A program made the position numbers and the translations under genes. The notes beneath the pieces are model-generated. The model saw nothing but the letters and a program-made list of their open reading frames with translations, was not told the DNA's origin and did not search any database. DNA of 64,000 bases from Ginglymostoma cirratum (lineage: Eukaryota), in assembly GCA_024137785.1 (NCBI GenBank), contig JAHRHZ010000063.1, positions 23,060,503 to 23,124,502 on the forward strand, in the 5' to 3' direction. Positions 5,176 to 11,100 of the stretch are shown piece by piece (the first letter of the stretch is position 1; each line of letters opens with the position of its first letter).

Positions 5176-8100
5176 GTAAGAGGTTATTTTTAACTATCAC
5201 ATACAACTGCCTCATAAGGGAAACTTCCAGCTCGCCAAGCCTAGCTGGGTATTGGGTGATCATGATTGACATGTTACGCAATTAAAGGAGTAAGCAATGT
5301 TTTGCTGTTCTAAATTTTGTCCTCAGTTTAGGAAAATGTTAATATATGTTTAGCCAGTTTTAAGATGTTACCTTACTAAACGAAAAGAATATGTCTTGTT
5401 CTGTGGTTAGTTAAGGTCAAGCTTGAATCAGGGATATAGGGAAACGGGTGCAGGCGATCCAGAATTAATAGTGTTGTTTTTATTAATGAAGGTCAAAGCA
5501 TTGCGTGCTCTGTGTGAACTAAAGTGGTGGCTTTAGAAACTGGCTAAAGCCAAAAGTATGTATGTAAAGCAAATGTATGTAGCGCCTTACAGTGTATCCC
5601 AATGAGTAGCAGCTATGAAGCAATGAGAAGCACTTTAGCGTCTGAATCAAATGGTTGCGTGTTCCATGTTCCATTCTAGGACTTGACAAATTATGGGCTG
5701 GCATTCTTGTGCATTCTTTTTGGAGCACTGCAGTGTCAGAATGGCATCTTTTGGATGAGATGCTAGACTGAGGCACTTTCTGCCCTCTCAGATGGATATA
5801 TTTTGTTATGGTTCTATTTGAAAGAAGGTCAAAAATGATACAACACCAGGTTATAGTCCAACAGGTTTATTTGAAAACACAAGCCTTTAGAGTCTCGCAC
5901 CTTCTTCAGGTGTTAGTGAGAGAGGTGGCATCAGACACAGAATTTATAAGCAAAAGATCAAAGGGTCATAGAACTGATGTAAATGTATTGAACAAACCGA
6001 AGATGACTGTTGAATCTTTGAAATATTAAAAATATTTGAAATAAGAACAGAGTGCCTTGGCCATTATTTATCCCATAAAGAAAATGACAAACACATTATC
6101 TAGGCATTCACCACATTGTTGTTTGTGGCCATAGGAGCTTGTTATGCACAAACTGGTTGCTGTGTTTCCTACATTATAACAAAGACTACATTCAATAATA
6201 TTCCATTGGCTGCAAAGTGCTTTGGGATGTTGTTTAGTCGAGAAAGTACAATGTAAATGACAGATTTTTGTTTCTTTCCATGGAATCACAACTGTACAAA
6301 GGAGGAAGTTTGCCCCACCAAGTCCATGTCAGTTCTCTGGATTTGGATGTGAGAACTAAATATATCACTTTAAGTGTTACTGTTGTCACAAAACTCTTTG
6401 GCAATGTGAATTGGGAAGAGGGTAAAAAAGTAGGAATTTGGACAGACTAAGTGAGTGGGCAAAAAAGCATGGCAGGTGAAATATAACGTGAAATGTGAAG
6501 TTATCTATTCTGGTCGGAAAAACAGATGAAAAACAAAATTATTTCTTAAGTGCTGAGAGACTGGGAGTGTTGATGTACAAAGTGACCTGGGTGTCCTTGT
6601 TCATAAGTCATTGCGGGCACCCTTCAGGTGCAAGTGGCAAAAGAGTTGAATTCCAGAGGTGAAATGAGGTTGAGTGTCCTTGCCATTAAGGCTTCACTTG
6701 ACTGAATGTAGCATCAAGGAGCCCTAGCAAGACTGGAATCAATGGGAATTAGGGAAAAGTTCTGCACTAGTTGGGGTCATACCCATAACAAGAAAAATAG
6801 TTGTGGTTGTTGGAGATCAGTCGTTTCGGCTGCAGGATATCTTTTCAGAAGTTCTTCAAGGTAGGGCCTTAAGCGCAGTCATCTTCAGCTACTTCATCAT
6901 AAGGTTAGAAATGGAATGTTCACTGATGATTGTACAATGGTCAGCACCATTTGTAACTCCTCAGATATTCATGGCCAAATGTAGCAAAGCTAGAAAATAT
7001 GCATAGGGCTGGATGAACACAGCAGGTCAAGCAGCATCATAGGAGCAGGAAAACTTGACGTTTCGGGCCTAAACCCTTCATCAGAAATGGGGGAGGGGAA
7101 GAGGGTTCTGAAATAAATAGGGAGAGAGGGGGAGGCGGATAGAGGAGAGGATAGGTGGAGAGGAGGCAGACAAGTCGAAGAGGCGGGGATGGAGCCAGCA
7201 AAGGTGAGTGTANNNNNNNNNNNNNNNNNNNNNNNNNNNNNNNNNNNNNNNNNNNNNNNNNNNNNNNNNNNNNNNNNNNNNNNNNNNNNNNNNNNNNNNN
7301 NNNNNNNNNNNNNNNNNNNNNNNNNNNNNNNNNNNNNNNNNNNNNNNNNNNNNNNNNNNNNNNNNNNNNNNNNNNNNNNNNNNNNNNNNNNNNNNNNNNN
7401 NNNNNNNNNNNNNNNNNNNNNNNNNNNNNNNNNNNNNNNNNNNNNNNNNNNNNNNNNNNNNNNNNNNNNNNNNNNNNNNNNNNNNNNNNNNNNNNNNNNN
7501 NNNNNNNNNNNNNNNNNNNNNNNNNNNNNNNNNNNNNNNNNNNNNNNNNNNNNNNNNNNNNNNNNNNNNNNNNNNNNNNNNNNNNNNNNNNNNNNNNNNN
7601 NNNNNNNNNNNNCAGAAAGGGTTTAGGCCCGAAACGTCAAGTTTTCCTGCTCCTATGATGCTGCTTGACCTGCTGTGTTCATCCAGCCCCATGCTTGTTA
7701 TCTCGGATTCTCCAGCATCTGCAGTACCTTTTTATCTCTAGAAAATATGCATATTTGGACTGATAAGTGGCAAGTAACATTTGCATCCCACAAATGTCAG
7801 GGAATGACCATCTTTAACAAGAAAGAAGCTAACCATCTTCCTTTGACATTCAATAATGTTGCCATCATTGAATCCCTCATTATTCCCAGGATACCATTGA
7901 GCAAAAATGGAACATGACTAGTCATACAAATACTACGAAACGAGGACAGGGTAGATGCTTGAAATGGCGCAGCAAGTAACTCACCTCCTGACTCCCTAAG
8001 GCCTGTCCACCATCTACAAGGTGTAAATCAGGAGTGTGATGGAGTTCTCCTCACTTGACTCCAACAGCCGTGAAAAGCTGGATACCAACTAAGACAAAGG

Positions 8101-11100
8101 ACTATATCCTCAAGCATCGATTCCCTCCACCATAGTTGCTCAGTAGCAACTGTATATATTATCTGCAAGATGCACTGTAGAAATTCACCAAGACGCCTTA
8201 CAAAGTATTTTCAAACCCACAGTCACTACCACCTAGAGCAACAAGGGCAACAGATACTTGCGAATACCACCACCTGCAAGCCACACCAAATCATTTATTA
8301 TCCTGACTTGAAAATATATTGTCATTTCTTCACTGTCACAGGGTCAAAATCCTGGAATTTCCTCCCTAACCGCACATTAGGGTGGGTCAATTACAGCACA
8401 TGGACTGCAACAGTTCAAGAAGACAGCTCACCGCTATCTTCTCAAGGGCAACTAAGGATGGGCAAAAATGCTGGCTAGCTAGTGATGCCCACATCCCATG
8501 AATGAATAAAAAAATTCTCACAATACTTGAAAAGGGCTTGACAGTCTGATGCAGAAAGGATGCAAGATGAAGTTTGGTGGTGGCGATGTCTAGAACCAGG
8601 GGACCCAGTGTTAGAATATCAAGAGGGTTGCTGAGCTGAGGAGGCTTTTCTTCACTCAGAGGATGTTGGACCTTTCAAATTATTTGCAGGACTGTAGAGG
8701 TTCAGCCCTCAACTGAGTTCAAGACAGTGATCAATAGATTTCTTGATGTTAAAGATATCAAGGGGTACCGGTACAGTGTGGAAGAATGGTAATGAAATCT
8801 AAGATCAGCCATTATCTAGTTGGAAGATGGAGCAGGCTGAAGGGCCAAAATGGCCTATTCCTGCCCCTATTTCTAATGTGATTTTGAATAATACATTGTG
8901 ACAATACTATGGCTTTAAGAGGTGTATTTTGTTCCATTTCTCTTTATGAAGAAAAGTTGAGACAGAGATGCCAAGCAGAATGTTCCAAGGTGAATAAAGT
9001 AAACAGCTTCTGAGGCCTTGGGTTTTTTTCGTAAGGTTGAAACAAGAGAAGCAGCATGAATGGGTGGGGTCAAGCTCCCACACAACCCCAGGATTTTTAG
9101 TTTTAGCTTTCTGCAGTTGCTGAGTCTTGAAGCTGTATGTGAAAACTCTTATTCCTCTCTCTGTTACAACTGGGGTTATAAGCTGGGGTTCTGTACCTGC
9201 TGCTAGAATTGCATGTGAGACAATCTATTTTACTGAACTTGCCTTTGCCAAGTATGTATTTATAGGATGTTATTATTGAAACAGTTAATTAGTTGTACTT
9301 AATGTATGTATTTTGTTAAGCATTTTGATAGAGTTACAGTAAGCCAGTTCTTTTATTTTTATTCTCTCTCTATTTTAATTATAATGTATAAATAAAGTGT
9401 TTTGTTTCAAGCCTGGTACTTTGACCAATCAATTGCTTCCAGAATACAACGCCTTACACTTAATAAGAAAAAGTTAGGGTCGAGACTATCTTCTTAATAT
9501 ATTTTGAGGGAGGTTGGGATTGGTCCATAACAACAGTTAGTCTTAATCCCCTGCTTTGTCCCTATATTCCTGCGGGTTTATTTCCTTTGAGTGTCCATCC
9601 ATTTTCCTGAAATTCATTTTGAAGAATTGTCATTGTAATGTAGAAAATGTGGCACCCAAATTGTGCACAGCAAGGTTCCACCATCAGCAATGAAGAAATT
9701 GACTAGATAACACCTGTTTTTCTTGTGTTGGTTAGGAGATAGATATTAGTTAAGGCGATGGAGAGAATTCCCCTGCTCTTCTCTAAATAATGGGAAGTGA
9801 GGTAGAGACATGAAAACTGAGTGGGAAAATTCTAGTACTTGGAGCATGGTTGGATTTGAGATAAATAATAAGGGTTTCTTTATCTGAAATTATCTTGTGA
9901 CATGCTGGATCTTGTTTTTTTTCTGTTTCTGCTTCATAATTTCATTCGAACAATCTAGTATTTGTTATCACCAATCAAAACATTTGCTGCACACAGATCA
10001 TGATATAAGTTCCTGACAATGTTCAGTTAGGTTACAGCCATCAATGTGATTGCAATTGTAGGGAAGTATGAGAAAGATCCCTTGAGTTAAGCAAAATCAT
10101 TCCTTAAAGAATAAAGATTCTTGTTTGTGAGAGAGATAGTAGGAACTGCTGATGCTGGAGAATCTGAGCTAACAAGGTGTAGAGCTGGATGAACACAGCA
10201 GGCCAAGCACCATCAGAGGAGCAGGAAAGCTGACGTTTCGGGTCTGGACCCTTCTTCAGAAATTGTTTGTGTTGCTTTCTGGCCATTTTCCACATTATAA
10301 AAATAGTTTTTGAGGATTTAGTGTATATCAGCCAGACAAAATGGCACAGTGAGGATACCTGGATGAACAAAAGCCCTCCATACAAAAAGATGGTGCTGTG
10401 GGATCTTTTCCATCCACCTGAGAGGGCAGAAGAGGCCCTGCACAGAATGAAAACAAAGATGACAGTTTTAAAATCAAGAACTTGCTTGACCAGAAGCCAG
10501 TGCGGATCAACGAATGCAGGGGTGATAGCGAAATAGGACTTGCTGCAACTTAAGACACCAGATGACCTCAGGTTTACTGAAGTTAGAATATATGACACTA
10601 GCCAGGACTGCACTGGAATAGTTGAATCTAGAGGTAATGTAGGTAGGGATAACAGTTTCAGCAGTAGATGAACTGAAATAGGGGCAAAGTTGGGCAATGT
10701 TCTGGAAGTGGAAATCTATGATCTTAAGGATGTGAAGTCAGAAGCTGTCCTGGGATAAAATATAACACCAATGCTGAGGCAGTTTCACTATGTGTACCCT
10801 AAATAAACTTTTTAAAATTTTGAAGACTTCTATTAGACCACCCTGTAGTCCAGTTTCCAAAAAAGAAGAGCACACTGATCTTTGCTATTGGTTATAACAT
10901 CATTCTGGTATGATTTTCGTTAACCTTTAATAACCTTGATGTTTCTTTGAGGGAGAAAGAGAACTAAGTTGAGAGGAAATTTCAGAGATGATCTGAGGAC
11001 AGTGGGAATGTCAGCTTGGATTTTTGTGGTCATGTCTCAGGTGAGGAGTTTGAACAAATGACTTCTGACTCATTGGTAATAGTTTACTCATTGAGCCACA

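What the first reader, a model, noticed from the sequence alone, without database searches (positions are those of the whole stretch)
7053..10262. Minimal hammerhead ribozyme cores in intronic PLE-derived mini-elements
Seen: two copies have a complete core on the minus strand, CUGAUGA-A-GGGU(uuag)GCCC-GAAAC-GUC (7057-7084) and CUGAAGA-A-GGGUC(ca)GACCC-GAAAC-GUC (10232-10259). Stem II pairing is kept despite different sequences, and a second family shows a further stem II variant (32775). Known: Penelope-like elements carry minimal type-I hammerheads whose very short palindromic stem III is completed by dimerisation. Inference: at least two shark PLE families here spread as ~100-700 bp ribozyme-bearing non-autonomous units.
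Basis: partly seen in the sequence, partly recalled or inferred. Interest (0 to 1): 0.7.

Follow-up and report, generated by a model that had tools for sequence, protein, structure and literature searches.

The report
Penelope retrotransposon stubs carrying minimal hammerheads
These two motifs are intact copies of the tiny hammerhead RNA motif already known from Penelope-like jumping genes, here in end-fragments of a family with over 150,000 copies, and the short copies are likely dead-end DNA copies of the uncut front end of the element's RNA rather than mini-elements that spread by themselves.

Summary
Both cores are at the stated coordinates. They are the pseudo-LTR (pLTR) end of an endonuclease-bearing Penelope-like element (RT, zinc-finger linker, GIY-YIG) with 78,487 exact intact cores genome-wide, and they sit antisense in a 20-kb intron of a HIPK3-like gene. 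The 32775 copy is broken, though its family carries intact cores; double-sided covariation appears only between families. Motif, inverted arms, 34-nt tail and target duplications are all published PLE traits. 'Non-autonomous units' is not supported: short and long copies are intermixed on a tree, cores decay at the flank rate, tandem units are absent. Added here: 30 of 86 family-1 arms start within -8..+1 of the core, at an initiator-like motif about 30 nt behind a TATA-like box (same layout in three families), against 2 of 86 at the cut site (about 1% genome-wide); 38 of 40 classifiable inverted pairs join one tail-less and one tailed arm. Short copies are therefore likely run-off cDNAs of uncut RNA. 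No cleavage was shown. The scan has reported this kind of finding, and the uncut-RNA reading, many times on other DNA.

The parts
7057..7084 (-). Intact minimal hammerhead core, family 1 (young subfamily); predicted cut after 7057
7084..7090 (-). Initiator-like motif; A at 7088 is the inferred transcription start, 4 nt before the core
   Evidence: sequence; 5'-end cluster; function inferred
7114..7119 (-). TATA-like word 31 nt upstream of the initiator A
   Evidence: 85 of 99 family-1 copies scanned have it at -31; function inferred
7005..7739 (.). One head-to-head family-1 insertion: minus arm 7005-7212 (no tail), assembly gap 7213-7612, plus arm 7617-7739 (starts at +7, so core incomplete; carries the 34-nt tail); 15-nt target duplication at 6990-7004 and 7738-7752
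10132..10263 (-). Single 132-nt family-1 stub (older subfamily) from the inferred start (-3) to the tail end (+128); 9-nt target duplication at 10121-10129 and 10263-10271; no TATA-like box
10232..10259 (-). Intact minimal hammerhead core inside the stub; helix I has a C-U mismatch
32699..32851 (.). Head-to-head family-2 insertion with 7-nt duplication; its core 32775-32804 (+) is broken (G12 to A, extra A, stem II mismatch)
43..222 (.). Head-to-head family-3 insertion; core 112-141 (-) with a CpG-type change that breaks the 15.2-16.2 pair; 15-nt duplication
62665..62815 (.). Head-to-head family-1 insertion without core; tailed arm begins at +29, the predicted cut product start, which is also a 6-nt palindrome
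45887..46547 (+). Decayed family-3 3' end: GIY-YIG remnant (45887-46153) followed by pLTR end
5825..5980 (-). Old family-2 copy with upstream TATA-like box and decayed core
5052..5175 (+). Host exon (HIPK3-like kinase domain) before the intron that holds the two cores
25171..25290 (+). Next host exon; best PDB match HIPK3

Best explanation
The two motifs are intact minimal hammerhead cores in the end repeat of a very abundant Penelope-like retrotransposon, and short copies such as 10132-10263 are likely run-off DNA copies of the uncut, probably capped 5' end of the element's RNA. Shown: element anatomy (pLTR, ORF starting at +168, RT, zinc finger, GIY-YIG, 3' UTR, pLTR), two 3' ends 34 nt apart, a 5'-end cluster just before the core, target duplications, neutral decay of cores. 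Inferred: a TATA-like box at about -30 and an initiator start transcription 4-7 nt before the core; the element's protein nicks target DNA and primes reverse transcription at +94 or +128 (as shown in vitro for the anole PLE, PMC11167929); priming on the 5' repeat runs off the RNA end after about 100-130 nt and gives a stub without the TATA-like box, priming on the 3' repeat gives long truncated copies; priming from both target strands, once at each site, gives the head-to-head pairs. The ribozyme is under selection only in master elements, folds inactive as a monomer (predicted), and had not cut most RNAs that were copied.
For: RT plus GIY-YIG in one frame upstream of the core; partial tandems with pLTR before the ORF. 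3' ends: 27 of 96 arms at +90..+95 and 40 of 96 at +126..+129. 5' ends, family 1: 30 of 86 arms at -8..+1, 2 of 86 at +28..+30 (10 arms next to gaps dropped); family 3: 34 of 70 and 1 of 70; family 2: 8 of 24 and 0. RNA reads from other copies show loose ends at -2, -3, -4 (539, 187, 218 reads). TATA-like word at -31 (85 of 99, family 1), -28/-29 (4 of 7, family 3), -30 (family-2 long copies). Extra G before the initiator A: 22 of 39 and 21 of 42 non-C cases against 26% expected; 27 of 59 after removing inverted or slipped junctions, p=0.001 (hand tally). Pairs: 38 tail-less/tailed, 2 both tail-less, 0 both tailed, 3 unclassified. Duplications of 7 nt or more at 37 of 69 family-1 insertions, 4 in the control. 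Older copies: core 14 of 319 changed, flank 68 of 1582, core CpG 20 of 87. Hammerhead fold 6-9 kcal/mol above the minimum.
Against: No transcription start was mapped: the polyA library is unstranded and fragmented and shows no pile of starts or ends. The promoter words are short, recalled consensus matches; family 1 has TATTTA, not TATAAA, and D. virilis Penelope uses an internal TATA-less promoter (PMC2377424), which would let stubs be transcribed. The extra G is weak for family 3 alone (13 of 32, p=0.056). There is a small excess of starts at the cut site (15 of 100 rows versus 5.6 at neighbouring positions; about 1% of 108,377 copies), so some templates may have been cut. The 5' cluster is 9-10 nt wide, not one base, and family-3 end calls were limited by a reference that began at -2. 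Copies longer than one unit need an extra step (template jump, circle or tandem read-through). The tree test has only 85 columns.
Confidence: 0.65

Rival explanations
1. The stubs are SINE-like non-autonomous elements: an internal promoter downstream of the initiator lets -3..+128 copies be transcribed and recopied by the PLE protein.
For: Stubs are discrete, duplication-flanked and outnumber long copies; D. virilis Penelope has an internal promoter (PMC2377424, passages); pLTRs act in cis for mobilisation in trans in rotifers (PMC3846280, passages); the older subfamily has more stubs than long copies (18 versus 8).
Against: No stub-only clades; every subfamily has long copies; cores decay neutrally; TATA-like box lies outside the stub in three families; RNA reads run on into unlike flanks in 85% of cases.
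Confidence: 0.18
2. The 5' cluster is not the RNA's end but a stop or cut: reverse transcriptase stalls at the folded hammerhead on a longer RNA, or the endonuclease cuts the intermediate at an ATT word.
For: The anole PLE endonuclease prefers ATT in its own pLTR (PMC11167929) and family 1 has ATTT there; many junctions in pairs fall inside stem II or other palindromes.
Against: Families 2 and 3 cluster at the same functional place without ATT; a stall should fall 3' of the structure, not at its 5' edge; TATA-like spacing and extra G are unexplained.
Confidence: 0.12
3. The ribozyme cuts and the unit RNA circularises; stubs and tandems are copies of cut or circular RNA (model of PMC4209133).
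For: Covariation between families shows selection on the fold; longer-than-unit copies exist; small excess of starts at +29.
Against: Cut templates give starts at +29, seen in about 1% of copies; a circle gives no cluster at -3; a non-ribozyme position (+35) has a larger peak (20 of 100 rows). It may still account for the rare partial tandems.
Confidence: 0.05

Closest known systems
Minimal hammerheads (min-HHR) in pLTRs of metazoan PLEs (Cervera and De la Pena 2014, PMC4209133; parts 1-2 of 4 read)
   Same: Type-I core without helix III, extra base before stem II, G10.1-C11.1, palindromic 15.2-16.2, thousands of dispersed single motifs ascribed to truncated PLEs, pairs 100-700 bp apart on opposite strands.
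   Different: No cartilaginous fish in the text read (supplements not seen); counts here are about ten times the largest given there (9,000, Xenopus); stem II is 4-5 bp; no end mapping or promoter link there.
Endonuclease-bearing PLEs of the Neptune type (Craig et al. 2021, PMC8557442, passages)
   Same: Single ORF with RT, CX2-5CxxC linker and C-terminal GIY-YIG; partial tandems, inverted 5'-truncated copy, 30-40 bp tail often at one end only.
   Different: Clade not placed by a tree here; very high share of 100-130 nt stubs; the one-tail rule is quantified here (38 of 40).
Anole Poseidon element PAc (Frangieh et al. 2024, PMC11167929; parts 1-2 of 4 read)
   Same: Two reverse-transcription starts bounding the tail; uncut RNA is the main template; ribozyme inactive without protein; both target strands extended.
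   Different: In PAc the ORF starts inside the hammerhead and priming sites lie in the ORF; here the ORF starts at +168, after both sites. Different PLE clade.
Non-LTR retrozymes (Li, Clavereau, Pollet 2026, bioRxiv 10.64898/2026.07.22.740005; parts 1-3 of 5 read)
   Same: Non-coding, pLTR-derived, type-I hammerhead; reported in one chondrichthyan genome.
   Different: Defined as head-to-tail tandem repeats with a ribozyme in each unit; the copies here are single or head-to-head.

Membership tests
PLE minimal hammerhead (min-HHR) | Conserved core CUGANGA / GAAA / NUH without helix III | tested here: met
PLE minimal hammerhead (min-HHR) | Extra base between 9 and 10.1 and G10.1-C11.1 pair | tested here: met
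   A then G-C in all families
PLE minimal hammerhead (min-HHR) | Palindromic 15.2-16.2 that covaries | tested here: met
   C-G in families 1, 3, 4 and G-C in family 2
PLE minimal hammerhead (min-HHR) | Short helix I | tested here: inconclusive
   4 Watson-Crick pairs, covarying, in families 2, 3, 4; only 3-4 weak pairs in family 1, one mismatch in the 10232 copy
PLE minimal hammerhead (min-HHR) | Located in the pLTR of a PLE | tested here: met
   family 1 and family 3; family 2 shows tail and inversion but no ORF was linked
PLE minimal hammerhead (min-HHR) | Self-cleavage as dimer or with protein | not testable with these tools
   no start or end pile in polyA reads, which cannot show it
EN+ Penelope-like element, Neptune type | One ORF with RT and C-terminal GIY-YIG | tested here: met
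   Pfam RVT_1 E about 1e-6 (just under the curated cut-off) and GIY-YIG E 4e-5 to 9e-3 in four copies
EN+ Penelope-like element, Neptune type | CX2-5CxxC linker between RT and endonuclease | tested here: met
   C-x4-C-xx-C in the translations; feature per PMC8557442, shared with Nematis
EN+ Penelope-like element, Neptune type | Partial tandems, inverted 5' copy, 30-40 bp tail, target duplication | tested here: met
EN+ Penelope-like element, Neptune type | RT phylogeny with named Neptune elements | not tested
   no reference PLE proteins were fetched
Non-LTR retrozyme | Head-to-tail tandem units each with a hammerhead | tested here: not met
   2 same-strand neighbours (801 and 957 nt apart) among 111 arms, none tandem units; 628 kb sampled only
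Non-LTR retrozyme | Abundant circular RNA | tested here: inconclusive
   polyA library only; no such joint among those listed
SINE-like non-autonomous family | Own lineage, separate from the autonomous element | tested here: not met
   16 label changes versus 16.9 shuffled, 51 rows, 85 columns; low power
SINE-like non-autonomous family | Internal promoter | not testable with these tools
   TATA-like box lies outside the stub; activity untested

The most novel reading that the evidence does not exclude
In three PLE families the hammerhead is the first thing transcribed from a TATA/initiator promoter, and the hundreds of thousands of stubs are integrated 'strong-stop' cDNAs primed by a two-site, two-strand reaction; their ends are a fossil read-out showing that roughly 30 templates were uncut for each one cut, which makes the open question of what the PLE hammerhead does (decapping switch versus circle maker) directly testable.
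Probability: 0.55. Interest if true: 0.5.

Novelty: new member of a known kind. Interest (0 to 1): 0.3.

Why it matters
The motif itself is a known PLE feature, so the catch is ordinary. What has value is scale and geometry: about 78,000 exact intact cores and family-1 arms covering 3.5% of the sampled DNA give statistics on a retrotransposition mechanism that is still poorly understood. If the stubs mark the capped, uncut RNA end, they locate the promoter, support the in vitro result that cleavage is not needed for insertion, and explain the one-tail inverted structure. No role for the two intronic copies in the host gene is indicated: they are antisense and decay neutrally as a class.

Tried and rejected
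Rfam scan: no hammerhead model hit; the miRNA hits at 48-186 and 62714-62800 are below gathering scores and are inverted PLE arms. Loose core pattern: not above chance. Cut-site footprint: 15 of 100 rows at +29 versus 5.6 at neighbours (Poisson p 7e-4) but 20 at +35, where no ribozyme acts, and +29 coincides with a palindrome and A-rich flanks; left as equivocal. The 62765 arm that starts at +29 was not taken as proof for that reason. RNA reads as evidence of cleavage or start: library unstranded, no piles; run X22 gave 406 reads mostly from one other place. Selection on genomic copies: rejected for the older subfamily; young copies 2 of 253 core versus 23 of 1216 flank, too few. Same-template test for paired arms: partner is among the closest 10% in 7 of 21 pairs, median rank 0.15, compatible with one event but weak. 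A possible splice acceptor 27 nt upstream of the family-1 core was noticed; copies do not cluster there. Five of the 100-kb sample blocks read wholly N and were dropped. No single intact full-length ORF was seen (longest 807 aa); about 1,050 aa is an estimate from overlapping copies. Family 2 could not be tied to an ORF in the DNA held. Literature searches listed no paper on shark PLE hammerheads or on 5'-end clustering of PLE stubs at a promoter; Repbase, Dfam, subscription papers and the supplements of PMC4209133 and the preprint were not seen and may hold these families.
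Full report
Numbering: C3 of the hammerhead core is +1, the base before it 0; the predicted cut in family 1 is after +28.

1. Observation. Both cores are present as written, on the minus strand. A loose core pattern gives 8 matches against 6.4 expected, so the pattern alone means little; a strict descriptor gives 36 hits in 628,057 sampled bases and 0 in ten shuffles, all but one or two in the families below. Rfam has no matching model hit. The 32775 copy has an extra A, G12 changed to A and a stem II mismatch. 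The two cores lie in the intron between plus-strand exons 5052-5175 and 25171-25290; the second exon matches HIPK3 best (E 3e-16, HIPK2 4e-13), and polyA reads cover the first exon but not unique intron. The cores are antisense to the host gene.

2. What they belong to. The genome is 4.36 Gb. A 31-nt word downstream of the core has 156,717 exact matches and the intact family-1 core pattern 78,487. Following the 7057 copy upstream through relatives leads to a pyrimidine-rich 3' UTR and an ORF with RT, a C-x4-C-xx-C linker and GIY-YIG. Copies with the 5' end show UTR, core, tail and then the ORF start at +168, that is a partial tandem with a pLTR. A family-3 core lies 327 nt behind a GIY-YIG match. 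This is an endonuclease-bearing PLE; the linker points to the Neptune type by PMC8557442 (passages seen), not placed by a tree.

3. Covariation. Within family 1 the stem II variants are one-sided (U.G or U-A). Between families there are double changes: stem II GGGUC/GACCC (families 1, 3), GGAGC/GCUCC (family 2), GAGUC/GACUC (a rarer family 4, two copies seen); 15.2-16.2 C-G versus G-C; helix I AGUU/AACU, AGCU/AGCU, UCAC/GUGA, and the weaker AUUU/AAGU of family 1. This is read from four families, not a statistical test. It shows selection in master lineages. In inserted copies of the older subfamily the core changes at the flank rate (14 of 319 versus 68 of 1582; CpG 20 of 87). As monomers both window copies are predicted to pair the core with itself; the hammerhead fold is -3.5 versus -9.3 and +1.0 versus -7.9 kcal/mol.

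4. How copies begin and end. Sample: five blocks, one of them the window with 110 kb of flank; five further blocks read N and were dropped. Arms found: 96, 24 and 70 for families 1, 2, 3; family-1 arms cover 3.5% of bases. Family-1 3' ends cluster at +90..+95 (27 of 96) and +126..+129 (40 of 96), 34 nt apart, the PLE tail. Of 43 head-to-head pairs 38 join a tail-less and a tailed arm, 2 are both tail-less, none both tailed, 3 unclassified (p 1e-9 against one half). Duplications of 7 nt or more flank 37 of 69 family-1 insertions against 4 controls (family 2: 4 of 18 versus 2; family 3: 15 of 60 versus 8). Family-1 5' ends: of 42 single arms 19 upstream, 14 at -8..+1, 4 inside the core, 0 at +28..+30, 5 further down; of 44 paired arms (10 next to gaps dropped) 4, 16, 13, 2, 9. 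Family 3: 34 of 70 in the cluster, 1 at the cut site; family 2: 8 of 24 and none. The cluster falls on an initiator-like motif (consensus recalled) whose A is also the first base of helix I in families 1 and 3, with a TATA-like word at -31 (85 of 99 family-1 copies scanned), -28/-29 (4 of 7, family 3) and -30 (family 2: 1 of 10, where most copies were short; visible in four long copies). G is over-represented just before that A (22 of 39 and 21 of 42 non-C rows, 26% expected; 14 of 27 and 13 of 32 after removing inverted or slipped junctions by eye), as a copied cap would give. Reads from other copies show loose ends at -2, -3 and -4.

5. Cut-site footprint. Of 108,377 young copies, 5,723 lack the A at +23; in the first 100 rows 15 start at +29 against a mean of 5.6 at neighbouring positions, but 20 start at +35. 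That is about 1% of copies. Equivocal; cut templates were at most a small minority.

6. Non-autonomous or not. Short (28) and long (23) copies are intermixed on a tree (16 changes, shuffled mean 16.9, 197 of 500 shuffles as low; 85 columns, weak) and occur in every subfamily. Tandem units are absent from the sample. In polyA reads the stub region is covered 8,000-13,000 deep per direction against about 200-530 in the ORF start, 85% of reads run on into unlike flanks, and there is no pile of starts or ends: passive read-through of many copies.

7. Mechanism. Shown: anatomy, ends, duplications, decay. Inferred: transcription starts 4-7 nt before the core; the protein primes at +94 or +128; on the 5' repeat it runs off the RNA end and leaves a stub without the TATA-like box; on the 3' repeat it gives long truncated copies; use of both target strands, one site each, gives head-to-head pairs. 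This matches the anole PLE in vitro: two internal starts bounding the tail, both strands extended, uncut RNA as main template, ribozyme active only with protein (PMC11167929, parts 1-2 of 4). Against: D. virilis Penelope has an internal promoter (PMC2377424, passages); no start was mapped here; longer-than-unit copies need another step.

8. Known context. PMC4209133 (parts 1-2 of 4) describes the motif, its dispersal as single copies of truncated PLEs, opposite-strand pairs 100-700 bp apart, no activity as monomer and low activity as dimer. PMC8557442 and PMC3846280 (passages) describe tail at one end, inverted pLTRs with palindromic junctions and solo pLTRs. The 2026 preprint (parts 1-3 of 5) reports tandem retrozymes in one chondrichthyan. 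PMC6155905 was seen as passages. Searches listed nothing on shark PLE hammerheads or on stub ends at a promoter; repeat databases and supplements were not seen. The scan's index holds 284 notes with these words in at least 27 genomes, several with the same uncut-RNA reading; I had reached it before that look-up, and those notes are not independent support.

9. Verdict. Real, new member of a known kind. Interest 0.3; 0.5 if the capped run-off reading is confirmed.

Noticed in passing
window 5052-56011 (+): HIPK3-like gene; further exons visible at about 25.9, 29.8-30.0, 43.0-43.3, 51.6-51.8 and 55.5-56.0 kb. The large upstream kinase exon was not found within 50 kb upstream.
   Followed up: partly
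window 48-186 and 62714-62800: Inverted PLE arms form long perfect hairpins that score as miRNA precursors below threshold; many such pairs in introns would be a large source of double-stranded RNA. A>G and T>C differences dominate in laid reads, but paralogous copies could give the same.
   Followed up: no
window 7213-7612 and many loci: Assembly gaps of 100 or 400 N sit in the middle of head-to-head insertions, so inverted PLE copies break the assembly and their lengths are unknown.
   Followed up: partly
L061 about 7130-7220; C1 block: A fourth, older hammerhead family with stem II GAGUC/GACUC and helix I AGCU/AGCU.
   Followed up: partly
L152, L138 (ORF N-terminal third): The PLE ORF has a variable-length Thr/Ala/Pro-rich repeat linker between an N-terminal domain and the RT.
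   Followed up: no
window 27277-28384, 34306-34617, 40519-42174: Fragments that look like CR1/L2-type LINE ORF2 (label recalled, not tested).
   Followed up: no
L038 (minus strand ORF of 230 aa): Fragment of a different PLE with RT thumb and GIY-YIG but no zinc-finger linker, Poseidon-like by eye.
   Followed up: no
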